A stretch of 64,000 nucleotides of DNA from Candidatus Saccharimonadales bacterium (GCA_041600715.1 JBFIJM010000001.1:609701-673700), one strand, 5' to 3'. Shown: positions 8,761 to 48,338, counted from the first letter of the stretch. The notes: a model not told the origin generated them from the sequence alone. Translations and numbers: made by a program.

Positions 8761-8808
8761 AGGAATTAGGAATTAGTAATTAGGTGGTAGGTAGTAGTTA
8801 GTAGTTAG
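8761..8808. repeat. TAG/GGAATTAG-unit dispersed repeat copy in a convergent intergenic region
   Basis: Sequence AGGAATTAGGAATTAGTAATTAGGTGGTAGGTAGTAGTTAGTAGTTAG. Shares the GGAATTAGTAATTAGG units with the copies at 14.05, 14.48, 22.6, 24.6 and 48.1 kb. Has stop codons in all three plus-strand frames. Confidence 0.7.
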
Positions 8809-8815
8809 CGGGGGG

Positions 8816-9283
8816 TTATTCTTGGGTGGCTTCGGCTGGCTTCAACACAATATGTCGATCACGACCTTCGCCAACAGACTCGGTTAATATGCCGTGGTCG
8901 CTTGCTGTTTTGTGCACCGTGCGACGATCTGCGGCATTCATAGGCTCTAATTCCTTCGATTCTCCTGATTGTTTAACTTCTTGCACCCATTTCTCAACCT
9001 GCTCAGCAAGTCTTGTAGCTCGCTGAGCCTTATACTCTGCGACATCAACATTCACTCGTGTAATCTCATATCCATTACTCTTTAGTGCGCTACTAACCAA
9101 GAACTGCATAGCGTGCATTGTCTCACCCCTCTGACCAATAAGAAAGCCGTTAAGATGAGTAGAAGGAATATTAAGTTCAATGACCTCATCCTCGCTGTTT
9201 GACGCCCTTACATCTGTGTTCAGGCCAAAGAAAGACAGCATATCCTCGAGGTATTTTTTAGCATAAATAATAGACTCTTCCAT
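8816..9283 (-). CDS. jag: Jag/KhpB-type RNA-binding protein (KH + R3H domains)
   Basis: 155 aa. KH-like segment GFLIGQRGETMHAMQFL and R3H segment ADRRTVHKTASDHGILTESVGEG. Conserved position downstream of yidC. Confidence 0.85.
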   Translation of the reverse strand: MEESIIYAKKYLEDMLSFFGLNTDVRASNSEDEVIELNIPSTHLNGFLIGQRGETMHAMQFLVSSALKSNGYEITRVNVDVAEYKAQRATRLAEQVEKWVQEVKQSGESKELEPMNAADRRTVHKTASDHGILTESVGEGRDRHIVLKPAEATQE

Positions 9284-9450
9284 TAGTACATCCTAAACCT
9301 TTCCTCTATAACTACATACAAAAACCTCTTGCTGTAGCATTGTTTTGACTCGGCAACGTATCGCAGAGGATGCGCCTTCTCGCCTCAAACAATCCTTCGC
9401 TGACGCGTTTTTCGTTCTTGTTCCTTTAGATGAAAAATCAAGCATGCTCA

Positions 9451-10368: not shown

Positions 10369-10420
10369 GCAGGTTCCTTCGCTTTCTTCCTTCTACTCTA
10401 GCATTATCAGTGGTCAAGTT

Positions 10421-10768: not shown

Positions 10769-10779
10769 ATAATTACTGC

Positions 10780-11303: not shown

Positions 11304-12689
11304 GTGGAGACAACGACTTTGTGGCAGTCAGTACTTGGAGAGATTGAACTTGGAGTTTCTCATGGTAACTATGTCACCTGGTTTAAAAACACTCGTTTAT
11401 TAAAACTTAAAGATGGATGTGCTGTGGTAGGTGCACCTAATGTTTTTGTGAAACAACAGCTAGAACGTAAGTTTAATACACTAATCGAAGATACATTAAA
11501 AAAGAATGATGATTCTATTGTTAGTGTCGAATATAAAATACTCCCAACTTCCTCCCTGCACCGCAAGATAGATGACGAAACTGTGATACTCGACCAAAGC
11601 CAGACTCAATCATTTAAACAAGAAGCCTTGGAATCGGCACCAACAATCACCAGTAGCCTTACTCACACATATCGACAAGGCATCAACGAACGTTACACCT
11701 TCGAGAATTTCATTGTGGGTTCTGGTAATGAGCTTGCATACGCTGCTTGTCAGGCCGTGGCTCAGAATCCCGGCACCAAATATAATCCTCTTTTCTTGTA
11801 CGGAGGTGTGGGTATTGGCAAAACGCATCTTATCCAAGCCGTAGGTAATACAGTGGTCGGTAATCGTAAAAACGCTCATATTGTTTATGTCTCCACGGAG
11901 CAATTTGTACAAGAATTTCTAGATGCTATTAGATACAAGAAAAATACTGACTTTGCTGGTTACTACCGCAGTGCTGACGTACTTATAATTGACGATATCC
12001 AGTTTATTGCTGGGAAAGAAAAGACTCAAGAAGAGTTCTTCCATACTTTTAATGCACTCCACCAGGCCAATAAGCAAATAATCATCACTAGTGACACGCG
12101 TCCAAAAGATATCCCAACTCTTACCGACCGCCTACGATCAAGGTTTGAGTGGGGCATGGCTATCGATATGCAGGCTCCGGATTTTGAGACGCGCTGTGCA
12201 ATTATCCAAACAAAGGCATCTCAACATAATGTAGAATTGCCTCATAACGTCGTGGAACACCTAGCTGGTCATGTTCAAAACAACATTCGCGAACTTGAAG
12301 GAGCACTCAATCAGCTAATTGCCTTCTGTGAAATGCGAGCATTAGAACCTTCTCTCGAAGTTGCCGTGGCATTGCTTGGAAATACCAAATCCCGGCCAAA
12401 ACACATAACACCAAGACAAGTAGTAGAGAGGACAGCTAAGCACTTCCATATAAGTATCGATGAGATATTGGGCCCAAAGCGAGATAAAGAGATTGTGGTG
12501 CCCCGTCAGATCGCTATGTATATGCTCCGTAGTGAGCTTCATCTTAGTTTTCCCAAAATTGCACGTGAGCTTGGTCGCAAGGACCACACTACGGCCATCC
12601 ATTCTGTAGAAAAAATCGAGAAAGAAAAAGCTTTCGACAATGATGTTCGTACTGCTTTGTCAGAAATAAAGGAGCGTTTATATGTTTAA
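11304..12689 (+). CDS. dnaA: Chromosomal replication initiator protein DnaA
   Basis: 461 aa with a GTG start. Walker A GGVGIGKTHL, Walker B LIIDDIQF and the C-terminal DNA-binding signature KDHTTAIHS. Confidence 0.97.
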   Translation: METTTLWQSVLGEIELGVSHGNYVTWFKNTRLLKLKDGCAVVGAPNVFVKQQLERKFNTLIEDTLKKNDDSIVSVEYKILPTSSLHRKIDDETVILDQSQTQSFKQEALESAPTITSSLTHTYRQGINERYTFENFIVGSGNELAYAACQAVAQNPGTKYNPLFLYGGVGIGKTHLIQAVGNTVVGNRKNAHIVYVSTEQFVQEFLDAIRYKKNTDFAGYYRSADVLIIDDIQFIAGKEKTQEEFFHTFNALHQANKQIIITSDTRPKDIPTLTDRLRSRFEWGMAIDMQAPDFETRCAIIQTKASQHNVELPHNVVEHLAGHVQNNIRELEGALNQLIAFCEMRALEPSLEVAVALLGNTKSRPKHITPRQVVERTAKHFHISIDEILGPKRDKEIVVPRQIAMYMLRSELHLSFPKIARELGRKDHTTAIHSVEKIEKEKAFDNDVRTALSEIKERLYV

Positions 12690-12953
12690 TACCTGTGTAA
12701 AAGCCGTGGATGGCCTGGGTAAAGTCGCTTGTTACTCAGTCGACTTATCCCATTATCACAGTTTTACAAAAGTAAGCCTTGTTATAAATACGTCTTTATA
12801 CGCAGGTAAGGCGTTATTTTCCACCGCTTCCGTACACAGAATTTATTCAATATTTACTTCTTTCAGACTTTACTTTTCCCTATTTTCCACACCCCTTACT
12901 ACTACTCCTACTACTTATATAAATACTTATTTAATAAACAAAGGTCTGCTTAT
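12690..12953. promoter_or_regulatory. Candidate oriC segment 2 (dnaA-dnaN intergenic region with DnaA boxes and an AT-rich stretch)
   Basis: TTTTCCACC at 12817-12825 and TTTTCCACA at 12883-12891, followed by the AT-rich stretch CTACTTATATAAATACTTATTTAATAAAC (about 12920-12950), a possible unwinding element. Confidence 0.55.
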
Positions 12954-14042
12954 ATGAAGCTTCAAGTAACTCAAGAAAACCTAAACCGAGCACTAAGTAA
13001 TGTGGCTAGGGTAGCTAGTGGTCGTAATGCCCTACCTATCTTATCTAACGTACTTATAAAAACCGTAGACAACCGTGTGTGTATCGCTGCGACAAATTTA
13101 AATATTGCGATTACTCACTACATAGGTTCAAAAGTTTCAGAACCAGGCTCAGTAACCGTCCCCGCTCGTTTAACCCAGGATTTTGTAGCTAGTTTATCTA
13201 GTGGAGTAATAGATATTGTGGTTGACGGAACAAAACTACACATAAAGACCGACTCTTACAACTCTACAATTAATGGAGCTCCAGCCGATGATTACCCTGT
13301 TATGCCTCAGATTAAACAAGGCACAACCTGGAGTGTGCCGTCAGCTAGTCTTAAAAAAGCACTACAACAAGTAGTTATCGCGTCCAGCAACGACGACACT
13401 CGACCGGTTCTGACTGGGGTTTACTTCCATACTCACGAAGGTTATTTATATGTAGTTTCAACGGATAGCTACCGACTTGCAGAGCGAAAAATAATGAAGC
13501 TTAAAGAACAAGTATCTTTACTTATCCCGGCTACCGCTATCAATGACTTGCTTCGTATTATGACTGACAGCGACAAAGAGGTTGTAGTAAAACACGATGA
13601 ACAACAAGTGTTGTTCACTATAGGCGACATAGAGCTTGTAACTCGTTTAATCGACGGATCATACCCAGACTATAGAAAGTTAATTCCCGGATCGTTTGCG
13701 ACAAGTGCTACTTTACCGCGTGCTGAGCTGTCAAACATTACTAAAGTGTCAAGCCTTTTCGCCAGAGAAAGTGCTGGAAGTGTTACCCTCAACGTAAGCG
13801 AAGGTGATAAACAGATAAGTATACAATCGGTAGCTTCTCAACTTGGAGAAAATACTGCAACGGCTAGTGCTGAAGTTTCTGGTGATGGAGCTATTACACT
13901 TAACTCACGATACATAATTGATTCTCTAGGTGTTATCGGTGACGACACAGTGTCGGTAAGTTTCAACGGTAAGCTTGAACCGTGCCTACTACAGGGAGCC
14001 GACAAAGACTACACACACATCATCATGCCACTTAAGTCCTAG
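12954..14042 (+). CDS. dnaN: DNA polymerase III beta sliding clamp
   Basis: 362 aa with full-length DnaN-like sequence (TRPVLTGVYF, TDSYRLA, LIDGSYPDY, MPLK C-terminus). Confidence 0.95.
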   Translation: MKLQVTQENLNRALSNVARVASGRNALPILSNVLIKTVDNRVCIAATNLNIAITHYIGSKVSEPGSVTVPARLTQDFVASLSSGVIDIVVDGTKLHIKTDSYNSTINGAPADDYPVMPQIKQGTTWSVPSASLKKALQQVVIASSNDDTRPVLTGVYFHTHEGYLYVVSTDSYRLAERKIMKLKEQVSLLIPATAINDLLRIMTDSDKEVVVKHDEQQVLFTIGDIELVTRLIDGSYPDYRKLIPGSFATSATLPRAELSNITKVSSLFARESAGSVTLNVSEGDKQISIQSVASQLGENTATASAEVSGDGAITLNSRYIIDSLGVIGDDTVSVSFNGKLEPCLLQGADKDYTHIIMPLKS

Positions 14043-14092
14043 ACAATAGTAATTAGTAAATAGTAATTAGGAATTAGTATAATTACTTAAAG
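14043..14092. repeat. TAG/GGAATTAG-unit repeat copy, left flank of the four-helix-bundle gene
   Basis: Sequence ACAATAGTAATTAGTAAATAGTAATTAGGAATTAGTATAATTAC. The segment AATTAGGAATTAGTA is inverted relative to the copy at 14476-14490. Confidence 0.7.
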
Positions 14093-14452
14093 ATGTCTAC
14101 TGATAAAATTAACTCGTTCACAGATCTGTTGGCTTGGCAGAAGTCACACGAGCTTACGGTCGCAGTATTTAAGATCTTTAAATCAGCAAAGAATAACAAT
14201 CTTCGATCTCAGATTGAACGATCCAGCCTCTCCGTAACTTCAAATATAGCAGAGGGTTTTGGGCGAAGTTCACAAAAAGATAAAGACCACTTTTACGTAA
14301 TGGCCAGAGGTTCTGCCTTTGAGGTTCAGAGTCAGTTGTTTGTGGCGCGTGACATTGCCGATATTACCCAAGAAGAGTTTGTCGAGCTTCTTAATAAGTC
14401 AGTCGATTCAATAAAACTTTTACATGGTCTTATAAGATCATTGAGAGGTTGA
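14093..14452 (+). CDS. Four-helix-bundle protein (23S rRNA intervening-sequence protein / Avd-like family)
   Basis: 119 aa. Family-typical pattern: LLAWQKSHEL, QIERSSLSVTSNIAEGFGRSS, KDHFYVMARGSAFEVQSQL. Confidence 0.85.
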   Translation: MSTDKINSFTDLLAWQKSHELTVAVFKIFKSAKNNNLRSQIERSSLSVTSNIAEGFGRSSQKDKDHFYVMARGSAFEVQSQLFVARDIADITQEEFVELLNKSVDSIKLLHGLIRSLRG

Positions 14453-14460
14453 AGCTATGA

Positions 14461-14497
14461 TACTATTTCCTATTTACCAATTCCTAATTTCTAAAAA
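14461..14497. repeat. TAG/GGAATTAG-unit repeat copy, right flank, inverted orientation
   Basis: Sequence TACTATTTCCTATTTACCAATTCCTAATTTCTAAAAA. The reverse complement contains AATTAGGAATTGGTA, matching 14/15 positions of the left-flank copy. Confidence 0.65.
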
Positions 14498-14500
14498 TGT

Positions 14501-15565
14501 ATGATTTTTACTGATATCCGTCTTCAAAACTATCGATCTTATTCTGATGCATCATTCGATCTCGGCTCGGGGGTTAATATAGTTGTTGGCCCAAATGCTG
14601 CTGGCAAAACCAACCTACTGGAAGCCATAATGGTGAGTTCAATAGGGGCCTCATACCGAGCAAAAAAAGACGTATTAATTCGACATAATACTGACTGGGC
14701 GCGCATAGATGTCCATACCTCCACCAACCAAACTCGGGTCGTCAAGATAAAGCAAGATAATGACGTTGCAAAAATATCGTTCGAGTTTGAAGAAAAGCCA
14801 TACCTGCGACTATCGCAACAACATAAGCACCCAGTAGTATTATTTGAGCCAAATAACCTTTTCTTATTACATGAGGAACCTTCAGAGCGTCGTGACTATA
14901 TCGATAACATGATCGAGCAGTACACACCCGGTTTTAGTACGTTGCGAGCTTCTTACAGGCGTGTAGTGTCTCAGAGGAATGCATTATTAAAAGAAGGTTC
15001 TCGTGGATCCTCGCAAATGTTTGCATGGAACATCAGAATGGCAGAGTTGGCAGATAAGATAGTCACTGCTAGGTTATTACTTATTGAACGTTTGCAACAA
15101 GATATTGCTCAAGTTTACGAAGTTATCGCTCATAAAAAACTAAATATAAAATTAGTATACGAATCTAAAACTAGACTAGACACTTATGGCAGTTCGCTCC
15201 TAGCAACACTCGAAGAAAACCAAGATATAGACATAGAGCGTGGCTTTACGACACGTGGTCCGCACCGCGATGATATCGTGGCATATTGTGGTGATGTTTC
15301 GATGGTTGATTCGGCGTCCAGAGGTGAGATCCGTACACTTTTGTTAGCAATTAAAATTATAGAGCTACAACTACTAGAAGAAAAAACAAATAAACGCCCA
15401 CTTTTGCTTCTAGATGATGTTTTTAGCGAGTTAGACGGTGTCAGAAGACGGGCCCTAACGGGTTTCTTAAAAAACTACCAAACCATAATAACTACGACTG
15501 ACGCCGACGCCGTCATCGAGCATTTCTCCGACGATTATACAGTTATCCCCGTCCAGGCTAGCTAG
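14501..15565 (+). CDS. recF: DNA replication and repair protein RecF
   Basis: 354 aa. Walker A GPNAAGKTNLLEA, signature RGPHRDD and Walker B LLLLDDVFSELD. Confidence 0.93.
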   Translation: MIFTDIRLQNYRSYSDASFDLGSGVNIVVGPNAAGKTNLLEAIMVSSIGASYRAKKDVLIRHNTDWARIDVHTSTNQTRVVKIKQDNDVAKISFEFEEKPYLRLSQQHKHPVVLFEPNNLFLLHEEPSERRDYIDNMIEQYTPGFSTLRASYRRVVSQRNALLKEGSRGSSQMFAWNIRMAELADKIVTARLLLIERLQQDIAQVYEVIAHKKLNIKLVYESKTRLDTYGSSLLATLEENQDIDIERGFTTRGPHRDDIVAYCGDVSMVDSASRGEIRTLLLAIKIIELQLLEEKTNKRPLLLLDDVFSELDGVRRRALTGFLKNYQTIITTTDADAVIEHFSDDYTVIPVQAS

Positions 15566-19407: not shown

Positions 19408-22400
19408 TTACTCACCACGGACCTTCTTCATCACCTCGTTATAGTAGTAATCGTCAATATCTGATTTACCGATAGGGCTACACTTATTGAGGTCTTTATG
19501 GGTTATAACTCCACTGACATTATTGCAATCAATATTTTTTTCTAGAGGTATATTATATTTCTTAACAAGGTACTTAACTGTATTTACGACCGCATTAAAT
19601 TTTTCTGGATACTTTTCTATACCCTCTTTGCCGAATTGCTCAGGACCCCCCTCTATCTCTATCCCGATAGTAGAAGAATTAGCGCCAATAGCATGAGAAG
19701 TTTTTGTTGTTAAGCTTTCTGTAAGTTGATAAACCCCTCCATCTGAAGTTATTCCAATCTGAACAGACAAACCATTACTCTTAAAGATACTAACTAAGCC
19801 GTCAATCCCTTTGTCGAATTGTCCGCCCCACCAATGAAGAGTAATGCCCTTAGGGTCGATATTACCTCCAGAACTAGCTCCTTTGAGGACCGGTTTTATC
19901 TTATTGATCTTAAAATCACCATCAACTTCTTCGGTGGTGCTTGTGCCAGCACTTGCCTGGGAGCTGACACCCGTACTCCCACCCACTCCAAGGTCTCCAC
20001 ACGCGTCTTCATTACCTTCGTAACAGTTGAGGGCAGTAGAGTTTTTGACGTCATTAATATAGAACCGATATTGATTAAATAAATTGTCTCTATTTATATT
20101 CGGATCGCATTTTTCTTTTAGCTCACTTTTCTTTTCTAGTTGAAAGGTATTTACGGTTTTGTCTGTACTCTCTAGTCTAGGGCCATTATCTGTTAAATTA
20201 ACCTTCATATTGAAGCATTCGCTGTATTTCTCGTTAAGATTATCTATCTCAGCTTCTACCTTCAGGGCGCCGTCTATTGGGTTATCAAAAACAGGGCTGG
20301 ACTCAAGCTCATTAGAAAATCCGTACTTCGGCACTCCATAAACACTTTCTGGATCTGCAAAGCCTTGGGCATAAGCTCTCGGCATAAAATTGCTAACTGA
20401 CCCACTAAATAACGAACCAACCGTCTTTATAGGGTTAGTAAAACTTTGAGAAGCCTGAGCAAAAGAGCTTGGAGTTCTTCCTATGGCTGTAGAAGCGAGC
20501 GATGTGCTGTCATATACATCGAGGTAACGGGCATAAAAGCTCTTCTTTGAATTATCGTATAGCTGGTCCTCAAACTGCATTTGTTTTATCTCTGCTGTTT
20601 GCTGGCTTGTGAGTCTGCCTCCCCCGCCGGAGATTGCATCGTCGTTACCAGCCATAAAAGCACCTACATTAACCAGGTTGCCCCACTCTGCGCCTGTTGC
20701 ATAAACATTTACGCTGTTACCGGACGCTGCCGCTAAGGCTCTTTCCATGAGGTCTGCCGTACTAGTCCCAAAGGCGCTAAGACCAGTATCTGCAATTAAT
20801 GCTGTTGCATCTGACACAAATTTACTCGCATGTTGAAGGACAGGAATCTTGGCAACAAAATCCATTGCCCCACATGCAGAACTAATCCCTGGGATGCTAT
20901 CAACAGCATTAAATACCTCGGGTTTACTACCTATATTTTTTAACGAAGCCTCACTGGGCACATCCGGTCCGGTTCTCTTTTGGCCAAACTCTGCCTGCAT
21001 AGTGCTGGCATTTGCCCATGAAGTTTTAGTCTCTGGATCGTAGAATGAATCATAAAAAGCACTTAGTTCGTCCGGATTTACATTATTACCACTCATAACC
21101 TGGTTACCAATAGTCATAGCCCTCATGCCCATTCTAATCATTGGTGCAACGTTATTTACATATTTATAGTCCTCAATGTTATCCCCAAACCCTTTAACAG
21201 TACATAAGACACCAACCGCTGCTGTCACCCCAAGACCCTTAACCAATCCTTGACGTATAGTCATGCTACTTTTCTCTCCAGGAGTCGACAGCTCTTGGTT
21301 GGCTTTGTCGATTGCTTCTTTTGCTTCTTTGGAAGCTACTTCGGCGGTGGGATCGACTACGTCATTCCCGTCCGCATCTTTACCTATAGGGTCAACTCTT
21401 CCTGCTTCGGCAGGTTCAACGCCTGTCTTATCTCGTTTTGCGGTTTCTTCTTTTATCCGTTGTTTCTCTGCGCGTTTAGCTGCCGCGCTGTCTAGCTTTT
21501 CTCGAGACTTATTCTTTAGTGGAGCAAAGTCCACGCCACCTCTTTTCTTTAGTAATCTGGCGCCTAATGTCCCAGCTATATTAAATGTCTTAGTCGACTT
21601 GCTTACAGAGTTCACCATGGCGCGTGTTGCTCTTGGATTACTATCTCGAGCATCAAGGAAGAAGTGGTCATCTGACACTGCTCTATTTTTCTTAGTACCC
21701 TGAACACCTTGGCCTCCCGCTTGTGACACCTGGGTGACCTTACCGTTGTTTGCTTCCCACTCAGAAATAATACTCTGTGCTTTATCTCTGTCGACAATTT
21801 CAAAACCAGCAAAACGTCCGGTTGTTTTTGTATAAACTGGCCGAAGACCAGTGTCCTTTGTTATGCGCGCCTCCCATTTGTCGGCTACCGCGTTTGTTGC
21901 TACGCCTAATCTTGTTCGCTCTGCCCTATCGTCCGACAGAACATACTGCAGTAACTTAATAGATCTACGGTTAGAAAAATCATTGTTACTTTTCATATGG
22001 AAATTCTGTAGGCTCTGCGCCAAATGAATAAACTGCAGGGGGCCTTGGATAATACTAAAACCAAACACTCCACCTGTGACGACGGCTCCGAGTAGTCCTC
22101 CGATTATAGTTTTGCGCCTAGTGAATTTGCCACGAAATTTACCAAAACGGCTTTCATCTTCGTTTCCGCTAAACAACCCATTAGTTTCTGAATCATTAGT
22201 ACCAAAACCTAGGGAAGCTGTTTCGTCCTGACCAGCGAAGCCAGTCTTAGCTGTATCCCCACTCCTTTCCCGTTCCCCTAAAGTCTCTGAGTTGATTTTT
22301 TTTGATTCAGAGGCTCGGTCGACAGGATTGTGGTTAACTGATCCTGTCGGAGTGCTGGGCTTATCTTGGTCATAGACACCCTCACTACCAAGCGGCTTAT

Positions 22401-22560
22401 AAACCATTCCTGGTCGATGGCTTGACCTTAGGTGATCTATGCCTTCCTGGGAAGCGGTAGGGATTCTTTCTAGTTCCTCAGCTGATACGCCATTTGGTGT
22501 TTGGTTGGGTGCGCCATAACTCGTTTCTTCGTCACCTTTACTAGGCGTTCTTAATGCCAT
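19408..22560 (-). CDS. Large T4SS-associated membrane protein with a C-terminal N-acetylmuramoyl-L-alanine amidase (Amidase_2/PGRP-type) domain
   Basis: 1050 aa. Disordered N-terminus, then the TM helix IIGGLLGAVVTGGVFGFSII. The C-terminal segment ITLHWWGG...SHAIGANSSTIGIEIEG...GVITHKDLN follows the Amidase_2 pattern. Confidence 0.75.
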   Translation of the reverse strand: MALRTPSKGDEETSYGAPNQTPNGVSAEELERIPTASQEGIDHLRSSHRPGMVYKPLGSEGVYDQDKPSTPTGSVNHNPVDRASESKKINSETLGERERSGDTAKTGFAGQDETASLGFGTNDSETNGLFSGNEDESRFGKFRGKFTRRKTIIGGLLGAVVTGGVFGFSIIQGPLQFIHLAQSLQNFHMKSNNDFSNRRSIKLLQYVLSDDRAERTRLGVATNAVADKWEARITKDTGLRPVYTKTTGRFAGFEIVDRDKAQSIISEWEANNGKVTQVSQAGGQGVQGTKKNRAVSDDHFFLDARDSNPRATRAMVNSVSKSTKTFNIAGTLGARLLKKRGGVDFAPLKNKSREKLDSAAAKRAEKQRIKEETAKRDKTGVEPAEAGRVDPIGKDADGNDVVDPTAEVASKEAKEAIDKANQELSTPGEKSSMTIRQGLVKGLGVTAAVGVLCTVKGFGDNIEDYKYVNNVAPMIRMGMRAMTIGNQVMSGNNVNPDELSAFYDSFYDPETKTSWANASTMQAEFGQKRTGPDVPSEASLKNIGSKPEVFNAVDSIPGISSACGAMDFVAKIPVLQHASKFVSDATALIADTGLSAFGTSTADLMERALAAASGNSVNVYATGAEWGNLVNVGAFMAGNDDAISGGGGRLTSQQTAEIKQMQFEDQLYDNSKKSFYARYLDVYDSTSLASTAIGRTPSSFAQASQSFTNPIKTVGSLFSGSVSNFMPRAYAQGFADPESVYGVPKYGFSNELESSPVFDNPIDGALKVEAEIDNLNEKYSECFNMKVNLTDNGPRLESTDKTVNTFQLEKKSELKEKCDPNINRDNLFNQYRFYINDVKNSTALNCYEGNEDACGDLGVGGSTGVSSQASAGTSTTEEVDGDFKINKIKPVLKGASSGGNIDPKGITLHWWGGQFDKGIDGLVSIFKSNGLSVQIGITSDGGVYQLTESLTTKTSHAIGANSSTIGIEIEGGPEQFGKEGIEKYPEKFNAVVNTVKYLVKKYNIPLEKNIDCNNVSGVITHKDLNKCSPIGKSDIDDYYYNEVMKKVRGE

Positions 22561-22581
22561 CAGAATTTTCTCCCAGAAAAT
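22561..22581 (-). promoter_or_regulatory. Conserved translation-initiation leader, copy 1 (ATTTTCTGGGAGAAAATTCTG-ATG)
   Basis: The 21 nt directly upstream of the 1050-aa gene ATG match 20/21 positions of the 21 nt upstream of the virB4 ATG. Contains the SD-like GGGAGA 8 nt before the ATG. Confidence 0.6.
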
Positions 22582-22582
22582 T

Positions 22583-22655
22583 CAGCAACTAGGAAGTAGC
22601 AACTAGGAAGTAGCCAAACTCCTAATTTCCAATTCCTAATCCCAAGTTCCATGCT
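22583..22655. repeat. TAG-unit hairpin repeat between virB4 and the 1050-aa gene
   Basis: Direct repeat CAACTAGGAAGTAGC x2 followed by CCTAATTTCCAATTCCTAATCCCAAGTTCC. The arms can pair imperfectly (with G-U pairs) in the minus-strand transcript. Confidence 0.6.
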
Positions 22656-24572
22656 CTATACTCCCGGGTATAATCGGTTACTCAGGTCGATCGTTCCTTG
22701 CCCGCCCGCAATTTCTCCTGCTTGTTGAATCTGTTGTACTTGCTGTGGATTAGTCGTGATCAAGTTTTGCTCTGTTGGGCTTGCCACAATCTGAATATGA
22801 ACATGATTTTGTCCAGCAAAAAACAAACCCTGCCCTACGGGGAACTGGCTCAAACGCTTACGTTCCTCGCTGGTAAGTTTAAAGACATCAGATAAAACGT
22901 CAACTGCTGACGCAGACTGCTTAAGCAAGATCTGCATACTAGAGTTTGCTACAATCGCTCTGCCCATACGTGAGCCCATAAAGTCTTCTACGTCTTGGCT
23001 AATGGTAGTAATACCCAAGTTATATTTACGAGCACGCTTAGCTAAACTAAAAATAAAGCTGGCGCTATCCTCGTACTTCATAAGTTGCCAAGCCTCATCC
23101 ACGATTAGAATACGGCGCTTCTGGTCAGACTTAGTTTTGTTCCAGATATAATTAAGCACAATAAACATTGCTACTGGTCTAAGCTCATCCTCAAGATCAC
23201 GAATATTGAAAACAACCATCGGGTTGTTAATATTTATGTTACTTTGCTGAGAGAAGATACCTGCAAAAGTACCGCTTGTATACTTGCGTAAACGTTGCGC
23301 CAGTTGAGGACCGCTTCCACCCATATGTAGCAACGTTTCGTACAGGTCGGTTACTGTTGGTGGTGTAGAGCTGTGAGTCAGCGGATCATTGGTAATTCCT
23401 GCTTTGGCGTAGGTTTCTATCAGCGCTGCGTCTAGGTCGGCTTCTTCTGTGGGGCTAAGAGCTGGTGCCATCATGGCGCCATTATTGCTCATCTGGGCCT
23501 GCGCGCCTCCCATCATAAGTCTTAGGAGTCCATGAAGTGTAATGAGATTGCTCCGAAGTGCATTATCGGCTTCTTCTGTGTCGATTACCTGCGGTAGGTC
23601 GAATGGATTAATTCGTGTCTGAGAGTTGAGGCTTAATCGAACATATGCGCCACCAACAGCTTCGCACATTCGTTGATATTCATTTTCTGGGTCGATAATA
23701 AATACTTCTGTGCCGAGCATCATGCTACGAAGAGCCTCTAACTTAACGGTAAAGCTCTTACCGGCTCCAGACTTAGCGAACACGACTGAGTTGCCATTTT
23801 CCAGACTGAATCTGTCGAAGATAACCAACCCTGAGTTATGCATGTTAATGCCATACATAAGGCCGTTTTCTTGGGTGAGATCAGCACTGGTAAACGGGAA
23901 GCTGGTACTCACTGCGCCAGTATTCATGTTGCGTCTAATCTGTAATTGATCAGTAAACTGCGGAATAGTGCCGTTTAGGCCTTGCTCCTGTTGGCTACTG
24001 GCCGGCTTACTATAAACAAGCTGTTGCCCTAATATCGACTCGATTTTATGAGACACAAACTCTAGCTCATCCATCGACCCTGCGTAAACGGTAAAGTACA
24101 GACCCATTCGGAAGAATCGTTCTTCGCCAACCTGTAGCTTGTCTCGCATCTCCTCAGCGTCCATGATGGCAGACTGGGTGGCAGGATCACGAACCCTGCC
24201 CTTCTCTGCATTAATCATGGTTTGAGCTTCTAATTGTGCCACTTTTTTCTGTAGGTTCTTTAACACAACCTGGCTTTCTACAGGATAAATGTATATAGAC
24301 AGATCAATAACCTCATCAAGATTTACCATGCTAGACAGCCAGCCAGTGGTTAATTGTCGTGGGTATCCATACACATAATAACTTCGTGCAAAACGTGTTC
24401 CGAGCTGGAAATGCGAAGCACTAAACTCTATCGAGCTGGGAGCTATAAAGTCACGAAGCGCTGTTATACCCTTATTAAACGCCGCGTCCACTTCTTGTTG
24501 CTCACGCATTTGTTGGGCCTGGGCGATTGCTATTGGATCAAGGGGTTGTTTTTTGTTTTTTCCAAAAGCCAT
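22656..24572 (-). CDS. virB4: Type IV secretion system ATPase VirB4 (Gram-positive PrgJ/TrbE-like)
   Basis: Walker A FAKSGAGKSFTVK and Walker B RILIVDEAWQL. N-terminal domain pattern YGYPRQLTTGWLSSM. Start set at MAFGKNKK (24572), which has the SD-containing leader; the track ORF extends 16 codons into the repeat. Confidence 0.9.
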   Translation of the reverse strand: MAFGKNKKQPLDPIAIAQAQQMREQQEVDAAFNKGITALRDFIAPSSIEFSASHFQLGTRFARSYYVYGYPRQLTTGWLSSMVNLDEVIDLSIYIYPVESQVVLKNLQKKVAQLEAQTMINAEKGRVRDPATQSAIMDAEEMRDKLQVGEERFFRMGLYFTVYAGSMDELEFVSHKIESILGQQLVYSKPASSQQEQGLNGTIPQFTDQLQIRRNMNTGAVSTSFPFTSADLTQENGLMYGINMHNSGLVIFDRFSLENGNSVVFAKSGAGKSFTVKLEALRSMMLGTEVFIIDPENEYQRMCEAVGGAYVRLSLNSQTRINPFDLPQVIDTEEADNALRSNLITLHGLLRLMMGGAQAQMSNNGAMMAPALSPTEEADLDAALIETYAKAGITNDPLTHSSTPPTVTDLYETLLHMGGSGPQLAQRLRKYTSGTFAGIFSQQSNININNPMVVFNIRDLEDELRPVAMFIVLNYIWNKTKSDQKRRILIVDEAWQLMKYEDSASFIFSLAKRARKYNLGITTISQDVEDFMGSRMGRAIVANSSMQILLKQSASAVDVLSDVFKLTSEERKRLSQFPVGQGLFFAGQNHVHIQIVASPTEQNLITTNPQQVQQIQQAGEIAGGQGTIDLSNRLYPGV

Positions 24573-24593
24573 CAGAATGTTCTCCCAGAAAAT
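24573..24593 (-). promoter_or_regulatory. Conserved translation-initiation leader, copy 2 (ATTTTCTGGGAGAACATTCTG-ATG)
   Basis: Matches 20/21 positions of 22561-22581. The next codons begin ATGGC in both genes. Confidence 0.6.
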
Positions 24594-24594
24594 A

Positions 24595-24636
24595 GCAAAT
24601 TCCCAATTACTAATTCCCAATTACTAATTACTAGGA
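24595..24636. repeat. TAG/GGAATTAG-unit repeat upstream of virB4
   Basis: The segment TAATTCCCAATTACTAATTACTA at 24611-24633 is the exact reverse complement of the 23-mer TAGTAATTAGTAATTGGGAATTA at 48071-48093 inside tsaD. Confidence 0.8.
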
Positions 24637-25608
24637 TCATTGTATATGCCTATCTAGATTAGGTTGCGGCGCTATGCCGTCACCTTTAGTTACAACAGGG
24701 GCTGTTAAATCATTAAAATTCTTTAGTTGCTGACGGGTAGCTGTATCGGGGTTGTAACTATCGTAATATAACTCAATCAACTCCTGAGTATCTAAAGGCA
24801 GTCCTTGTACGCCACACTGCAATAACCCACCAAGTGTAGCCTGTACTCTATTGCGTAGCTCATCTTTAGCCTCCGCTAAGTGTTGCTCATTTATCACAAT
24901 ATGTGTTTTTGAGCTGTTAAACAGACTGAATACTCCATCTAGTAGCCCCTTACTTTGGGCTAATGGCTTAGTTGACTGTTCGTGCGGAAAGTAAGGAATA
25001 ACCACATAAAATCTCTTGTCCATAATGTTGGTCTGTGCTGCTGTTTGATCAATAAAATCAATATAATCATCCATAAGAACCGCTAGGAGCATATTGTCGT
25101 GCTCTGCACGAACTTTCTCTAACTTGGCAATGTAAGGACCAATATCTACCTTTTGGGAGCGGATAAATATCTGAACTGGAAAATATAAGGAGTTAAGAAA
25201 AGACTGGTAACTGTATTCTACTGCTTCACGCTCTTGGGGGCTCATTAGGTCAAAGTTAATAGACTTTACCATTACAACCGACCTAAAACTGCCGTCGTTC
25301 ATTATGACTATGCCGTCTCTGATCTCAGCGATCTGTAAGTTATTCTGCGTGCTATTAGGATTTACTTTTGGTTTAGGTGCACTACCCGGCCGTATGGCTT
25401 GGTTTGGATCTGCGGGTATAAAGGTTCCAGGTGACATATCTGGAGCAAATGTTCCGCGAGTTTGGGGCTGGGCTGGTTGTTGCCCGGGCTGTGGAGAGTA
25501 CCCTTGAGGCTGTGGATCAGCATAGACTGCACCTTGTGTGCCAGGAATCTGACTAGGAGATTGAGCTGACTGCCCTTGAGTTGGTTGTTGCTGACCTGAA
25601 GGATTCAT
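24637..25608 (-). CDS. T4SS-locus protein: Gln/Pro-rich N-terminus plus a domain resembling the VirB4 N-terminal domain, with no ATPase
   Basis: 323 aa. The first roughly 90 aa are low-complexity Q/P. The remainder (FRSVVMVKSINFDLMS...FPVQIFIRSQKVD...DKRFYVVIPYF) parallels the segment DLSIYIYPVES...ERFFRMGLYFTVY of the adjacent VirB4. Confidence 0.45.
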   Translation of the reverse strand: MNPSGQQQPTQGQSAQSPSQIPGTQGAVYADPQPQGYSPQPGQQPAQPQTRGTFAPDMSPGTFIPADPNQAIRPGSAPKPKVNPNSTQNNLQIAEIRDGIVIMNDGSFRSVVMVKSINFDLMSPQEREAVEYSYQSFLNSLYFPVQIFIRSQKVDIGPYIAKLEKVRAEHDNMLLAVLMDDYIDFIDQTAAQTNIMDKRFYVVIPYFPHEQSTKPLAQSKGLLDGVFSLFNSSKTHIVINEQHLAEAKDELRNRVQATLGGLLQCGVQGLPLDTQELIELYYDSYNPDTATRQQLKNFNDLTAPVVTKGDGIAPQPNLDRHIQ

Positions 25609-46036: not shown

Positions 46037-46513
46037 AGATAACAGTATATCACCTCTGTTAACTTCTTTGAACAAAGAAGCAAGTTGTTCCATTTTTGTG
46101 TCGACAAAAACGGAACCCAAAAAACGACAGCTACTGAAACACATGATTGAATTAGGATCATTTATGGGGAGTATTTTGCGGGACTCCCTTTGGTCGGGCT
46201 GAAGCCTCGTCCTCAAAACATCCATCATGAACTCCCCTATTTCATCAGTGTTTCAGCAATGCTGGGAGTAAGTGGAATCCGAGCGGGCTCGGGATTTATG
46301 ATTAGTAAAAATAAAGAGTTTTCACGTGAAAATTGAGCAATAGAATTCAAAGGTTTGCTATAAAGAAACCCCTCAATACCAGTGCCCATAACCGAATTTA
46401 TTTCTGTAGGTTCAACCTTGGCCGTGTACCAAGATAGTACGTACGAACTTTTTGTTTTCAACCATAAGCATATCAGACATCTCTATCTGTTACAATGTGC
46501 TTATGGGACAATT

Positions 46514-47200
46514 ATGAATCAGGTCCTCGATCAAAGATTAAGGGACATGACACCAGAATTGGGAGCCGAACCTACAATAGAAGATATCCTAAAGTTCGCT
46601 CACTATGCTTTTGAGCATGACGGACTAAATACGCCAGAGAGTCTTGATCCCTTTACGGTCTTAGAACGGGCGCGAAATGGGGAGAAGATGCGATGCGTAG
46701 AATATGCAATTATGGCCAGTAGTCTGTTGACAGCTTACGGAGTCCCAGCTCGGAGAATAGCCGGTTTTGAGGCAAAGAAAGACGAGTTTAATGGCCATGT
46801 ATTTATCGAATACTGGAACAATGACGCAGAGAAGTGGGTGATGCACGATCCGCAGTGGGGCATGACACCCTATATTGATGATGTACCTCTGTCAGCTCAT
46901 GAACTTCGACACGCATTTGAGGCAGAAAAACAGATTGATTTCCAGTCGATTCCTTCTCTCCGCTCTGGTGTTGATACTAGAGAATATGCAGACTGGGTCC
47001 GCCCGTACATGGATGTGTTCGACACGCCAGGTGTTGTGGCCATCACTGATCACAAATCACTCCAACAGCACACCAATGAGCATCGTTTTCGTCTTAGTCG
47101 GAGCATAGTAGTGTCTGCAAAAGTAGCTGATATTGGTCCATCTCATCTCCAGGAAGTTTCAGTAGAACAATTCTACGCACCACCTCTGCAAACTACATAG
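46514..47200 (+). CDS. Transglutaminase-like (Cys-His-Asp) domain protein
   Basis: Start set at MNQVLDQ. Putative catalytic pattern: RCVEYA (Cys), NGHVFIEYW (His), WVMHDP (Asp). Confidence 0.6.
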   Translation: MNQVLDQRLRDMTPELGAEPTIEDILKFAHYAFEHDGLNTPESLDPFTVLERARNGEKMRCVEYAIMASSLLTAYGVPARRIAGFEAKKDEFNGHVFIEYWNNDAEKWVMHDPQWGMTPYIDDVPLSAHELRHAFEAEKQIDFQSIPSLRSGVDTREYADWVRPYMDVFDTPGVVAITDHKSLQQHTNEHRFRLSRSIVVSAKVADIGPSHLQEVSVEQFYAPPLQTT

Positions 47201-48338
47201 GAAAGTTGGGCTTGATATCTAAGGTATACGGATCGGCTGGATCTACTCCTCCCTTGGCCATATGATAGGCAAGGGTGGCGATCATGGCGCCGTTGTCGGT
47301 GCATAGTTTCATGTCAGTGTAGATCGGCATGATCGGCAAAGCTTCGGCTAACTGGCGTCGTAGCTCAGGGTTGGCAGCTACGCCACCGGCTACCACAACG
47401 GAAGCAGGGGAGTGCTCATGGTACGCCAGTAAGGTTTTCTCGACCACTGTTTCCACAGCAATACGCTGAAAACTGGCCGATATGTCTGCTTTCTGAGCCT
47501 CTGAGAGTCGCTCAGACAGTTGCACTGACGGAAAGCCGTAATCTTCCCCTATTTCCGCTTGAGCAAGGCGTAGAACAGCTGTCTTAAGCCCAGAGAAGCT
47601 AAATTCATACGGTTTATCAAGCTTGGCTTTAGGTAGTTGATATTTAAAGGGGTCGCCTTTTTCTGCCATTTTGCCAACACTGGGCCCGCCAGGGTAGGGG
47701 AGTCCAAGAATCTTGGCTACTTTATCGAATGCTTCACCAATAGCATCGTCACGTGTCTGGCCGAGTAACTCATACACAAGCGGACTCTGAAAAAGCACAA
47801 TCTGACTGTGCCCACCACTGACAATAAGCGCTAACATCGGAAATTCAGGTGCTTGAGGAGGTAGCACATACTCTTGCAAGGATGGACCCTGCAATGTGAG
47901 GAAGGTGGCGAAAGGGTGAGCAGACACATGGTTAACAGCGTACAACGGCTTTTTCTTGGCAATTGCGAGCGTCCTGGCGGTCAGCACGCCAGCGAGCAAA
48001 CTGCCTCCCAGTCCAGGGCCTTGAGTAACAGCAATGGCATCAATTTGATCCCATGGATCAAGCTCGGAATTAGTAATTAGTAATTGGGAATTAATATTAC
48101 TCCTAGTTCCTAGTTCCAAATTCCTATTTTCTGGATAAAAGGCTTCGGAAAGAGCCTTTTCGACGACTGGCATCATGTGCTCTATATGGCTACGGGCAGC
48201 GATTTCTGGTACGACACCACCATAAACTGCATGTAGGTCCATAGAACTTGCCACTACATTAGATAGCAGTAACTGACCGTTTTCTACAACAGAGGCAGAG
48301 GTTTCGTCGCAACTTGTTTCGATGCCAAGAATTTTCAT
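47193..48338 (-). CDS. tsaD: tRNA N6-adenosine threonylcarbamoyltransferase TsaD, carrying a roughly 22-25 aa repeat-derived insertion
   Basis: 381 aa. GIETSCDETS, YGGVVPEIAARSH, VTQGPGLGGSLLAG and SGGHS motifs. The extra segment ENRNLELGTRSNINSQLLITNS lies between the conserved blocks. Confidence 0.93.
   Translation of the reverse strand: MKILGIETSCDETSASVVENGQLLLSNVVASSMDLHAVYGGVVPEIAARSHIEHMMPVVEKALSEAFYPENRNLELGTRSNINSQLLITNSELDPWDQIDAIAVTQGPGLGGSLLAGVLTARTLAIAKKKPLYAVNHVSAHPFATFLTLQGPSLQEYVLPPQAPEFPMLALIVSGGHSQIVLFQSPLVYELLGQTRDDAIGEAFDKVAKILGLPYPGGPSVGKMAEKGDPFKYQLPKAKLDKPYEFSFSGLKTAVLRLAQAEIGEDYGFPSVQLSERLSEAQKADISASFQRIAVETVVEKTLLAYHEHSPASVVVAGGVAANPELRRQLAEALPIMPIYTDMKLCTDNGAMIATLAYHMAKGGVDPADPYTLDIKPNFPM
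48066..48135. repeat. TAG/GGAATTAG-unit hairpin repeat embedded in frame within tsaD
   Basis: Sequence GGAATTAGTAATTAGTAATTGGGAATTAATATTACTCCTAGTTCCTAGTTCCAAATTCCTATTTTCTGG. Has a 23-nt exact match to the virB4-upstream copy and ends with the same ATTTTCTGG that begins the T4SS leaders. The two arms can pair imperfectly. Confidence 0.8.

What the first reader, a model, noticed from the sequence alone, without database searches (positions are those of the whole stretch)
8761..48135. Dispersed family of short TAG/GGAATTAG-unit repeats at gene boundaries
Seen in sequence: related elements built from units such as TAGTAATTAGG / GGAATTAG / CTAGGAAGTAG occur at seven sites.
- 8761-8808 and 14043-14092
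- 14461-14497 (inverted)
- 22583-22655 and 24595-24636
- 48066-48135
- A related ACTACTCCTACTACT stretch at about 12898-12915

The strongest link is a 23-nt exact match, TAGTAATTAGTAATTGGGAATTA, between 48071-48093 (+) and 24611-24633 (-). Copies are rich in stop codons in all three frames of one strand, and several can fold into imperfect hairpins.

Inference: this is a REP/MITE-like element family. It might act as a combined transcript-end structure and three-frame translation stop between tightly packed genes. I do not recognise it as a described element.
Basis: partly seen in the sequence, partly recalled or inferred. Interest (0 to 1): 0.7.

Follow-up and report, generated by a model that had tools for sequence, protein, structure and literature searches.

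The report
Seven-base repeat stems, IVS-like cassettes
Short runs of a seven-letter DNA word scattered through a small Saccharibacteria genome are the paired arms that bracket a small 'rRNA intervening-sequence protein' gene, or stand alone without it. The same layout surrounds this gene family in many bacteria, which ties together two long-unexplained features of bacterial genomes.

Summary
The repeats are real: seven arrays at five loci, about 0.07 expected by chance. They are tandem heptamers (consensus TAGKAAT), not 8-11-nt units. The 12898-12915 stretch is unrelated.

One inverted pair (14040-14081 and 14461-14497) brackets a PF05635/TIGR02436 four-helix-bundle gene inserted between dnaN and recF. 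This is the architecture of the Coxiella 23S rRNA intervening sequence: S23p ORF, heptamer repeats, a stem cut by RNase III.

The layout is general. Of 76 PF05635 genes from metagenomes and finished plasmids, 49 have flanking period-7 arrays; other periods occur in 0-11. The two arms are reverse complements of each other.

The other window copies lack the ORF. There are two-arm stems at 22583-22655 and 48063-48135, and single arms at 8760-8808 and 24599-24633. Close relatives lack them. At the virB4 junction one relative instead carries a different PF05635 cassette.

The 48063-48135 copy lies inside tsaD, in frame, and models as a disordered loop. It sits at a hot spot where other Saccharibacteria hold arrays of other heptamers.

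It is not a REP, a MITE or a terminator. RNA processing of the stem is inferred, not shown. Verdict: a new variant of known kinds (IVS elements, heptanucleotide repeats).

The parts
14040..14081 (+). 5' arm of the cassette: six tandem heptamers (TAGACAA TAGTAAT TAGTAAA TAGTAAT TAGGAAT TAGTATA). It starts at the dnaN stop codon and ends 11 nt before the ATG of the four-helix-bundle gene.
   Evidence: It pairs with 14461-14497 in both the MFE and the centroid fold of the 469-nt RNA. It is conserved in orthologous cassettes.
14093..14452 (+). Gene for a 119-aa four-helix-bundle protein (23S rRNA intervening-sequence protein / S23p family), inserted between dnaN (12954-14042) and recF (14501-15565).
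   Evidence: Pfam PF05635, E 2e-28. TIGR02436, 97 bits against a cut-off of 24. PDB 2GSC XCC0516, E 2e-9.
14461..14497 (-). 3' arm of the cassette: the reverse complement of the 5' arm (TAGAAAT TAGGAAT TGGTAAA TAGGAAA TAGTA when read on the - strand). It lies between the stop of the four-helix-bundle gene and the recF ATG.
   Evidence: By my own count, not a tool output, 27 of 33 positions are complementary to 14047-14079. Flank duplex -25.5 kcal/mol. The closing stem of 21 pairs is kept in 4 orthologues, with one compensatory AU->UA change.
22583..22655 (-). ORF-less two-arm copy between the virB4 stop (22656) and the next gene's ATG (22560). Read on the transcript strand it is a G-containing arm (GGAACTTGGGATTAGGAATTGGAAATTAGGAG), a 5-nt loop, then a C-containing arm (CTACTTCCTAGTTGCTACTTCCTAGTTGCTG).
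   Evidence: RNA fold -24.9 kcal/mol, z -1.3. The same junction is 6 nt long in L212, holds 38 unrelated nt in L211, and holds a PF05635 gene in L210.
24599..24633 (-). Single-arm array (TAGTAAT TAGTAAT TGGGAAT TAGTAAT TGGGAAT) between the stop of the upstream gene (24637) and the true virB4 ATG (24572).
   Evidence: Absent from three relatives, whose junctions are compact: a TAATG overlap or a 13-nt spacer. P0241 (638 aa) fixes the virB4 start.
22553..22588 (-). Translation-initiation block next to the arrays, copy 1: about 28 nt, TTGCTGAATTTTCTGGGAGAAAATTCTG, then ATGGC. Copy 2 is at 24568-24597. It supplies a GGGAG Shine-Dalgarno sequence to the downstream gene.
   Evidence: The 25-nt pattern TTTTCTGGGAGAANATTCTGATGGC matches only at 22556-22580 and 24568-24592, with 0 expected. 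It is absent from relatives at both junctions.
24568..24597 (-). Translation-initiation block, copy 2 (TTGCTATTTTCTGGGAGAACATTCTG then ATGGC), directly 3' of the array at 24599-24633.
8760..8808 (+). Single-arm array of seven heptamers (TAGGAAT x2, TAGTAAT, TAGGTGG, TAGGTAG, TAGTTAG x2). It lies between the convergent genes 8183-8758 (+) and 8816-9283 (-, KH/R3H Jag-like).
   Evidence: Stop codons occur in all three frames on both strands. No terminator-like site.
48063..48135 (-). Two-arm copy inside tsaD (47193-48338, -), in frame. It encodes residues about 70-92 (ENRNLELGTRSNINSQLLITNSE). In each arm, the unit that would put a stop in the tsaD frame carries a substitution (TAG->TTG, TAA->CAA; my own reading of the sequence).
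   Evidence: The Pfam TsaD match is split in two. The closest homologues lack the insert. In the AlphaFold2 model residues 72-94 have no secondary structure and pLDDT is below 50 at 77-90, while the model mean is 90.9.

Best explanation
**What it is**
The repeats are arrays of tandem heptanucleotides (TAGKAAT). They form the two complementary arms of an IVS-type cassette family.
- Full form: a G-containing array, a PF05635 four-helix-bundle gene, then the reverse-complement array. It sits between two co-transcribed host genes, here dnaN | 14040-14497 | recF.
- ORF-less forms: the two arms abut (22583-22655 and 48063-48135), or only one arm is left (8760-8808 and 24599-24633).

**Shown here**
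- The heptamer structure and the family relationship among copies.
- The PF05635 gene lying inside the stem.
- The generality of this layout around PF05635 genes.
- Conservation of the stem in orthologous cassettes.
- Gain or loss of copies between close relatives.
- The in-frame tsaD copy, modelled as a disordered loop.

**Inferred**
- Arrays grow, shrink and change unit by replication slippage.
- Copies reach new gene junctions by a copy mechanism that uses no element-encoded transposase. At the two virB4 junctions the arrays came in together with a 28-nt Shine-Dalgarno block that restores translation of the downstream gene.
- In the transcript the paired arms form a long double-stranded stem. 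As in rRNA intervening sequences, RNase III would cut it, so the inserted gene is excised from the host transcript and the insertion is nearly harmless.
- Which came first is not resolved: ORF-less stems derived from cassettes, or cassettes landing in pre-existing stems.
For: **This window**
- Period-7 arrays, non-random. The six arrays share a core of about 28 nt in register.
- ORF 14093-14452 matches PF05635 and TIGR02436. Both the MFE and the centroid fold of the whole cassette RNA close the two arrays into one stem.

**Published precedent**
The Coxiella 23S rRNA IVS carries an S23p ORF, a 28-bp terminal stem and three tandem heptamers (plus a fourth degenerate copy) just upstream of the ATG. 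The heptamer copy number varies between strains, and RNase III cuts at the first repeat (PMC4990558).

**Generality**
- Of 67 metagenomic PF05635 loci, 43 have a strict period-7 array within 150 nt, and 17 have one on both sides. With a laxer cut-off, 69 of 85 have at least one and 51 have both.
- The upstream unit differs from the reverse complement of the downstream unit by 1.1 mismatches, against 2.7 for permuted pairs.
- Median flank duplex energy is -34.8 against -23 kcal/mol in controls, Wilcoxon p about 4e-10.
- Period 7 occurs in 49 of 76 loci. Periods 5, 6 and 8-12 occur in 0-4 loci, and period 4 in 11.
- All nine finished plasmids examined show inverted short-repeat flanks. Seven or eight of them have both arms within about 150 nt. 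Hosts include Nostoc, Anabaena, Riemerella and Azospirillum, and several copies sit inside cas operons.
- Junctions next to the ORF carry arrays in 54/132 cases, against 10/57 for other junctions in the same loci, p 0.002.
- Two further genomes carry PF05635 genes flanked by the same TAGGAAT-type unit as this window: L059 (Bacteroidota) and L075 (Neisseriaceae).

**Orthologous cassettes**
dnaN-4HB-recF cassettes whose protein is 68-75% identical keep the arms. The 21-pair stem shows one compensatory change.

**Dynamics**
The closest relatives have no period-7 arrays in 67 kb, while the 64-kb window has five loci. The virB4 junction is empty in L212, holds a different PF05635 cassette in L210 and holds the ORF-less stem here.
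Against: - Most heptamer arrays are not next to a PF05635 gene. Only 2 of 120 loci carrying this unit in other genomes have one within 8 kb. ORF-less arrays therefore far outnumber cassettes and may have an independent origin.
- Within the same loci the enrichment at PF05635 junctions is only about 3-fold, 41% against 18%.
- The L210 cassette at the virB4 junction has different repeat units and a protein only 32% identical. The window's stem there is not simply its deletion product.
- The window's ORF-less stems are weak. They are AU-rich, with z of -1.3 and +0.3 in the transcript sense.
- There are no RNA data and no RNase III gene in the window, so cleavage rests only on analogy.
- No mobility mechanism is known, and no target duplications were seen.
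- The metagenome sample is biased towards relatives of the query protein.
Confidence: 0.55

Rival explanations
1. These are ordinary heptanucleotide microsatellites (long simple sequence repeats). They arise in place by replication slippage, are neutral, and are tolerated only outside reading frames. The neighbouring four-helix-bundle gene is a coincidence of shared intergenic niches.
For: - Heptamer repeats are the most over-represented long SSR class in many bacteria (Mrazek 2007, as cited in PMC4679880 and PMC4692102).
- Unit number and sequence vary between copies.
- No fixed ends and no target duplications.
- In other genomes 100 of 109 arrays lie outside ORFs and show no strand bias.
- Only 2 of 120 arrays have a PF05635 gene nearby.
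Against: - Five loci in 64 kb share one unit family and a 28-nt core, whereas 67 kb from the closest relatives has none.
- Slippage does not make reverse-complement arms on the two sides of a gene.
- The period-7 preference around PF05635 genes is strong, 49/76 against 0-4 for neighbouring periods.
- A non-repetitive 28-nt block came in with the arrays at two junctions.
- The arms are conserved in orthologous cassettes.
Confidence: 0.2
2. The arrays are binding sites. The four-helix-bundle protein is an Avd-like pentameric barrel. It, or another RNA- or DNA-binding protein, recognises tandem heptamers at 7-nt spacing and regulates translation or transcript fate of the adjacent genes, including its own.
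For: - Arrays abut start codons or stop codons.
- Unit similarity tracks the identity of the enclosed protein, Spearman rho -0.42.
- Arrays elsewhere in a locus share the unit of that locus's cassette in 8 of 21 cases, against 8% for permuted pairs. The same holds in the window, in L059 and in L075.
- PF05635 resembles Avd, the accessory protein of diversity-generating retroelements (PMC10053308). That Avd binds nucleic acid is my own background knowledge and was not read in that paper.
- Published work on TAACTGA repeats and on Nostoc recF/recO heptamers postulates an unidentified binding partner.
Against: - The correlation between unit and protein is equally expected from co-inheritance.
- In Coxiella the S23p protein appears not to be made in vivo and its ORF is decaying.
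- There is no binding data.
- The reverse-complement arrangement points to base pairing rather than to a one-stranded site.
Confidence: 0.15
3. One reading: a REP/MITE-like mobile element that acts as a combined transcript-end hairpin and three-frame translational stop between tightly packed genes.
For: - A dispersed family, mostly at gene junctions.
- Presence/absence differences against relatives.
- Stops in all three frames at four of six sites.
Against: - No conserved palindrome, no terminal inverted repeats with fixed ends, and no target duplication.
- No terminator-like sites.
- The hairpins fold no better than shuffles.
- Transcript-sense three-frame stops occur at only two of five intergenic arrays, and one copy is read through inside tsaD.
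- Many PF05635-flanking units in other genomes contain no stop codon at all.
Confidence: 0.08

Closest known systems
23S rRNA intervening sequences that carry an S23p ORF (Coxiella burnetii helix-45 IVS; Leptospira IVS)
   Same: - A PF05635 ORF enclosed by terminal inverted repeats that form a long stem.
- Tandem heptamers directly upstream of the ORF start, with variable copy number.
- ORF-less versions exist.
- Described as a selfish element tolerated because RNase III removes it (PMC4990558).
   Different: - Here the cassette lies in a protein-gene operon (dnaN|recF), not in an rRNA gene.
- Both arms are built wholly from heptamers.
- ORF-less copies are dispersed at other junctions and inside a protein-coding gene.
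- Excision was not tested.
Intergenic heptanucleotide repeats: cyanobacterial STRR, Xanthomonas GGGAATC / Nostoc GGGGATT repeats, Beggiatoaceae TAACTGA repeats
   Same: - Tandem 7-nt units, 2 to tens of copies, strongly intergenic, often touching start or stop codons.
- Sometimes found as inverted pairs.
- Patchy phylogenetic distribution and unknown function (PMC4692102, PMC4679880, 10.1101/2022.06.06.494920).
   Different: - The unit TAGKAAT in a Saccharibacteria genome is not described in the papers found.
- Those papers do not connect the repeats with PF05635 genes.
- Here one copy is translated in frame.
Rickettsia palindromic elements (RPE); comparison from my own knowledge, not read here
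   Same: A palindromic repeat inserted in frame in an essential gene and translated as an extra surface segment.
   Different: - RPEs are conserved elements of 100-150 nt restricted to Rickettsia.
- This insert is about 70 nt, made of heptamers, and its unit differs between lineages at the same codon position.
REP/BIME elements and MITEs
   Same: Short, dispersed, mostly intergenic, partly palindromic, and variable between strains.
   Different: - No conserved palindrome consensus, no fixed length, no terminal inverted repeats with defined ends, and no target-site duplication.
- No associated transposase was seen.
Tandem repeats of Borg elements that create disordered protein regions (PMC9879509; only title and abstract were seen)
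   Same: Fast-evolving tandem DNA repeats that, when in frame, add intrinsically disordered segments to proteins.
   Different: - According to the title and abstract, which are all I saw, Borg repeats are tandem direct repeats.
- Here a 7-nt unit forces frame rotation, the insert has two arms, and it is tied to an IVS-type cassette family.

Membership tests
IVS element carrying an S23p/PF05635 ORF | Encloses a PF05635 (23S rRNA intervening-sequence protein / TIGR02436) ORF | tested here: met
   PF05635 E 2e-28. TIGR02436 97 bits against a cut-off of 24. Applies to 14093-14452 only; the other four loci have no ORF.
IVS element carrying an S23p/PF05635 ORF | Terminal inverted repeats that close a long stem around the ORF | tested here: met
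   The MFE and the centroid fold both pair 14047-14088 with 14452-14493. RNAalifold keeps 21 pairs in 4 orthologues.
IVS element carrying an S23p/PF05635 ORF | Tandem heptamers just upstream of the ORF start (as in Coxiella) | tested here: met
   TRF finds period 7, 4.7 copies, at 14047-14079. Precedent in PMC4990558.
IVS element carrying an S23p/PF05635 ORF | Located inside a 23S or 16S rRNA gene | tested here: not met
   It lies between dnaN and recF. Rfam finds no rRNA in the window.
IVS element carrying an S23p/PF05635 ORF | Excised from the transcript by RNase III | not testable with these tools
   No RNA data are available. No RNase III signature occurs in the 64-kb window.
Heptanucleotide long simple sequence repeats / STRR | Three or more tandem copies of a 7-nt unit | tested here: met
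   TRF period 7 at five loci. PWM register scan.
Heptanucleotide long simple sequence repeats / STRR | Strong intergenic bias | tested here: met
   Four of five loci are intergenic in a window that is 92% coding. In other genomes 100 of 109 arrays lie outside ORFs, against 14% intergenic sequence.
Heptanucleotide long simple sequence repeats / STRR | Length or presence variation between related strains | tested here: met
   Absent at the tsaD and the two virB4 junctions in relatives. No arrays in 67 kb of the closest relatives.
REP/BIME | Conserved imperfect palindrome of fixed size (about 20-40 nt) | tested here: not met
   Copies are arrays of 3-7 units with variable composition. Two loci have only one arm.
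REP/BIME | Associated RAYT (Y1 transposase) in the genome | not tested
   Only 64 kb of a contig of about 771 kb was available.
MITE | Target-site duplication and defined terminal inverted repeats | tested here: not met
   Comparison of filled sites with empty ones at both virB4 junctions and in tsaD shows no duplication and no fixed ends.
Intrinsic terminator | G+C-rich stem followed by a T run | tested here: not met
   No terminator-like site at 8600-9000, and none overlapping the arrays in 22400-24800.
In-frame palindromic insert (RPE-like behaviour) | Insert keeps the host reading frame open and lies in a tolerant surface region | tested here: met
   The tsaD frame has 0 stops while the other two frames on that strand have 5 and 2. 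The insert models as a loop with pLDDT below 50 in a model of mean 90.9. This shows behaviour only, not family membership.

The most novel reading that the evidence does not exclude
PF05635 four-helix-bundle genes together with inverted heptamer arrays would form a pan-bacterial class of operon-invading, IVS-like selfish cassettes. They appear in rRNA genes, cas operons, dnaN|recF and type IV secretion operons.

On this reading, the long-known and unexplained excess of intergenic heptanucleotide repeats is largely the footprint of ORF-less stems from this system. That excess includes cyanobacterial STRR, Xanthomonas and Bacteroidota repeats, and CPR arrays. The four-helix-bundle protein would be the missing factor that binds or mobilises the repeats.
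Probability: 0.25. Interest if true: 0.85.

Novelty: new variant of a known kind. Interest (0 to 1): 0.65.

Why it matters
Two puzzles have stood for decades. One is what the abundant tandem heptamer repeats of cyanobacteria and other bacteria are. The other is what the widespread '23S rRNA intervening-sequence protein' genes do and how they come to sit inside rRNA genes and operons.

Here most PF05635 genes examined sit in a stem made of inverted heptamer arrays. ORF-less stems of the same unit family occur in the same genome. Together these observations turn both puzzles into one testable hypothesis.

- RNase III end mapping would test stem processing.
- Gel shifts with the protein and array RNA or DNA would test binding.
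- A census across complete genomes would test the link between arrays and PF05635 genes.

The result also gives a concrete example of such a repeat being absorbed into an essential enzyme (TsaD) as a disordered loop, at a hot spot shared across Saccharibacteria.

Tried and rejected
1. **'Every array of this unit flanks a PF05635 gene.'** Rejected. An HMM built from 120 homologues finds the gene in only 2 of 120 array loci from other genomes. The converse, that most PF05635 genes have arrays, was then tested and held.
2. **Rfam at gathering thresholds.** Only three tRNAs were found and nothing at the repeats.
3. **Terminator and promoter scans.** Nothing lies at the arrays.
4. **Three-frame stop as the selected function.** Rejected on per-frame counts, on the lack of strand bias, and on stop-free units in other cassettes.
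5. **Stable hairpins in this window.** Not supported, with z between -1.7 and +0.3. The tsaD inserts of L124 and L125 do fold strongly, z -4.2 and -6.8.
6. **The TTTTCTGG match next to the tsaD copy as a third copy of the 28-nt block.** Judged unsafe, because that stretch encodes the 'AF..E' residues conserved in homologues.
7. **Window stem at 22583-22655 as a deletion product of the L210 cassette.** Rejected, because the units differ and the proteins are only 32% identical.
8. **Look-up of the window's own TsaD to reach the source contig.** Not on record.
9. **PADLOC.** No defence-system match for either four-helix-bundle protein.
10. **RNase III signature in the window.** None found.


Full report
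**Source.** The window is a gene-dense stretch (92% coding) with G+C of about 0.43. It carries rnpA, yidC, dnaA, dnaN and recF, a type IV secretion cluster and tsaD. Homologues at 85-86% identity are named Candidatus Saccharibacteria or Saccharimonadales by their sources. The window's own proteins lie on an NCBI contig of 771,351 bp.

**The observation.** The unit is seven bases, or fourteen at 22584-22650, with consensus TAG(G/T)AAT.
- A position-weight scan for three units in register finds seven arrays at five loci. Thirty dinucleotide shuffles gave none in 28 runs and one in 2.
- All 17 two-unit matches in the window fall in these loci, with 0.76 expected.
- The six arrays align over about 28 nt.
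- The stretch at 12897-12915 is a (TAC)n run and does not belong.
- Four loci are intergenic. The fifth, 48063-48135, lies inside tsaD.

**The cassette between dnaN and recF.** The arrays at 14040-14081 and 14461-14497 are inverted and bracket ORF 14093-14452. This ORF matches PF05635 (23S rRNA intervening-sequence protein) and TIGR02436 (four helix bundle protein). It is related to the solved structure XCC0516 of Xanthomonas campestris.
- Folding the 469-nt RNA closes the two arrays into one long stem in both the minimum-energy and the centroid structure.
- In four Saccharibacteria contigs whose protein is 68-75% identical, the gene sits at the same place with the same kind of arms.
- RNAalifold on window, L206, L207 and L209 keeps a 21-pair closing stem with one compensatory AU->UA change.

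**Precedent.** The Coxiella burnetii 23S rRNA intervening sequence is a 428-nt 'selfish' element with an S23p ORF of this family. It has a 28-bp stem of terminal inverted repeats and three tandem heptamers (GACAGAT) before the ATG. The heptamer number varies between strains. RNase III cuts at the first repeat and the excised RNA is degraded quickly (PMC4990558). The window's cassette has this anatomy, but in a protein-gene operon.

**Generality.** I fetched 80 metagenomic loci encoding relatives of the protein.
- Of 67 loci with enough flank, 43 have a strict period-7 array within 150 nt of the ORF, and 17 have one on both sides. With a slightly laxer cut-off, 69 of 85 have at least one and 51 have both.
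- The upstream unit and the reverse complement of the downstream unit differ by 1.1 positions, against 2.7 for permuted partners.
- The flanks pair at a median of -34.8 kcal/mol, against -23 for reversed or shuffled controls, p about 4e-10.
- The period is specific. Period 7 occurs in 49 of 76 loci, periods 5, 6 and 8-12 in 0-4 loci, and period 4 in 11.
- Unit similarity follows protein similarity, rho -0.42, so arrays and gene are inherited together.
- Nine finished plasmids of isolates were examined. All show inverted short-repeat flanks, and seven or eight have both arms within about 150 nt. Hosts are Nostoc, Anabaena, Calothrix, Pseudanabaena, Stanieria, Picosynechococcus, Riemerella and Azospirillum. 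Several copies lie between cas6 and cas4 or between cmr2 and cmr3.
- Within the same loci, junctions next to the ORF carry arrays in 54/132 cases against 10/57 elsewhere, p 0.002. The enrichment is real but moderate, because these genomes have arrays at other junctions too.

- Of 109 arrays analysed, 100 lie outside ORFs, although only 14% of that sequence is intergenic. The TAG strand shows no preference relative to transcription, 30 against 34.
- Only two of these 120 loci hold a PF05635 gene. In both, the gene is flanked by inverted arrays of the same unit family: L059 in Bacteroidota and L075 in Neisseriaceae.
- ORF-less arrays therefore greatly outnumber cassettes. This leaves the direction of descent open.

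**Dynamics in this lineage.** The closest relatives by VirB4 are L212 (95%), L210 (94%) and L211 (91%). With L001 they have no strict period-7 array in 67 kb.
- Downstream of virB4, L212 has a 6-nt spacer and L211 has 38 unrelated bases. L210 has a different PF05635 gene (32% identical) with its own inverted repeats. The window has the ORF-less two-arm stem at 22583-22655.
- Upstream of virB4 the relatives are compact. The window has about 75 extra bases: the array at 24599-24633 plus a block, TTGCTATTTTCTGGGAGAACATTCTG.
- That block recurs next to the other stem and nowhere else. It supplies a Shine-Dalgarno sequence where the relatives use overlapping stop and start codons.
- L210 and L211 lack the dnaN|recF cassette.
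- No target duplications or fixed ends are visible.

**The tsaD copy.** The Pfam TsaD match is split. The insert encodes residues of about 70-92.
- Homologues range from 351 to 442 aa, around a base length of 353 aa. Many carry low-complexity inserts at this same spot, while the two closest (76-78% identical) have none.
- The DNA of four such inserts is again made of period-7 arrays, but with other units: GAAGGTG/TTCCAAA, AGAGGTT, CGAGNNN/CTCAARA and GCGAGCT. A complementary second arm is clear in L124 and L125, unclear in L122, and absent in L123.
- Two of the four (L124 and L125) fold strongly, z -4.2 and -6.8. The other two do not.
- In the window, the tsaD frame has no stop while the other two frames on that strand have five and two. 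By my own reading of the sequence, the unit in each arm that would hit the tsaD frame carries a substitution.
- An AlphaFold2 model with mean pLDDT 90.9 shows residues 72-94 without secondary structure and pLDDT below 50 at 77-90. The segment lies between a helix and a core strand. The insert is therefore most likely translated as a disordered surface loop.

**What it is not.** There are no terminator-like sites at the arrays and no Rfam family. The window's stems fold no better than shuffles. Transcript-sense three-frame stops occur at only two of five intergenic arrays. There is no REP-like fixed palindrome and there are no MITE hallmarks.

**Literature.** Heptamer repeats are a known, unexplained class:
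- STRR in cyanobacteria.
- GGGAATC in Xanthomonas and GGGGATT in Nostoc (PMC4692102).
- TAACTGA in Beggiatoaceae, cyanobacteria and Bacteroidetes (PMC4679880).
- recF/recO heptamers in Nostoc, with an 'unidentified partner' (10.1101/2022.06.06.494920).

PF05635 genes are reported in CPR rRNA insertions (PMC11270868) and in cas loci (PMC3936711). They resemble Avd of diversity-generating retroelements (PMC10053308). Apart from the Coxiella paper, none of the papers I found connects the two. Papers outside the searchable library may.

**Verdict.** This is a real family, best read as the heptamer-built stems of IVS-type PF05635 cassettes and their ORF-less relatives. RNA-level processing and the mode of spread are inferred, not shown.

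Noticed in passing
window 22556-22580 and 24568-24592 (- strand): A 25-nt block, TTTTCTGGGAGAANATTCTGATGGC, precedes two neighbouring type IV secretion genes and occurs nowhere else in the window (0 expected). It contains a Shine-Dalgarno sequence, the ATG and the first codons. The part before the ATG is absent from relatives and came in with the heptamer arrays.
   Followed up: partly
TsaD homologues P0026, P0032, P0036, P0042, P0062, P0085, P0088 (alignment A1); L125 10467-10496: Besides the shared hot spot, Saccharibacteria TsaD proteins carry low-complexity inserts at three other positions (alignment columns 229-262, 353-397 and 492-532). The one checked at DNA level (L125) is again a period-7 array, unit CTACCAA.
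   Followed up: partly
L210 3914-4306 (relative, VirB4 94% identical): A different PF05635 gene (32% identical to the window's) sits between virB4 and the next gene. This is exactly where the window has its ORF-less stem. The same contig lacks the dnaN|recF cassette.
   Followed up: yes
L214, L217, L219 (plasmids of Pseudanabaena galeata, Anabaena sp. 90, Picosynechococcus PCC 7003): PF05635 genes are inserted between cas6 and cas4, or between cmr2 and cmr3, in the same orientation as the cas genes. They are flanked by long heptamer arrays: about 15 copies of AAAGCTA in one, and about 35 copies of GACAGGT/GACAGGG in another.
   Followed up: partly
L218 (Nostoc PCC 7120 pCC7120gamma) and L220 (Stanieria NIES-3757 plasmid); also L210 3914-3950: Cassettes in two cyanobacterial orders share an ACTTCAAACTT leader and CTTCTGCC-type downstream arrays. 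A similar CAAACTTCAA repeat precedes the PF05635 gene of the Saccharibacteria relative L210. This may be a horizontally spread cassette lineage, or it may be chance.
   Followed up: no
L013, L112, L114, L117, L029, L083 (genome-contig loci): In several phyla an array of GGAATTA units is followed within 20-40 nt by an array of a quite different heptamer (TTCGGAT, TACTGCT, CTCACTC). These are not simple hairpins.
   Followed up: no
window 48055-48145; L123 10215-10320; L125 10195-10300: For the tsaD inserts, the strand antisense to tsaD often folds better as RNA than the sense strand: -19.6 against -12.3, -28.9 against -15.9, and -43.8 against -38.1 kcal/mol. This suggests G-U pairs are kept on the antisense strand.
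   Followed up: no
window 12682-12957: A 91-aa ORF lies between dnaA and dnaN and contains the (TAC)n run at 12897-12915. Relatives show small called ORFs at the same place (L206 993-1241, L208 2610-2864). Its status as a gene is unclear.
   Followed up: no
window 27763-27800: A perfect 18-nt tandem repeat (CCAGGTCCAGGCGCTGGT, 2.1 copies) lies inside ORF 27723-29645. It is in frame and unrelated to the heptamer family.
   Followed up: no
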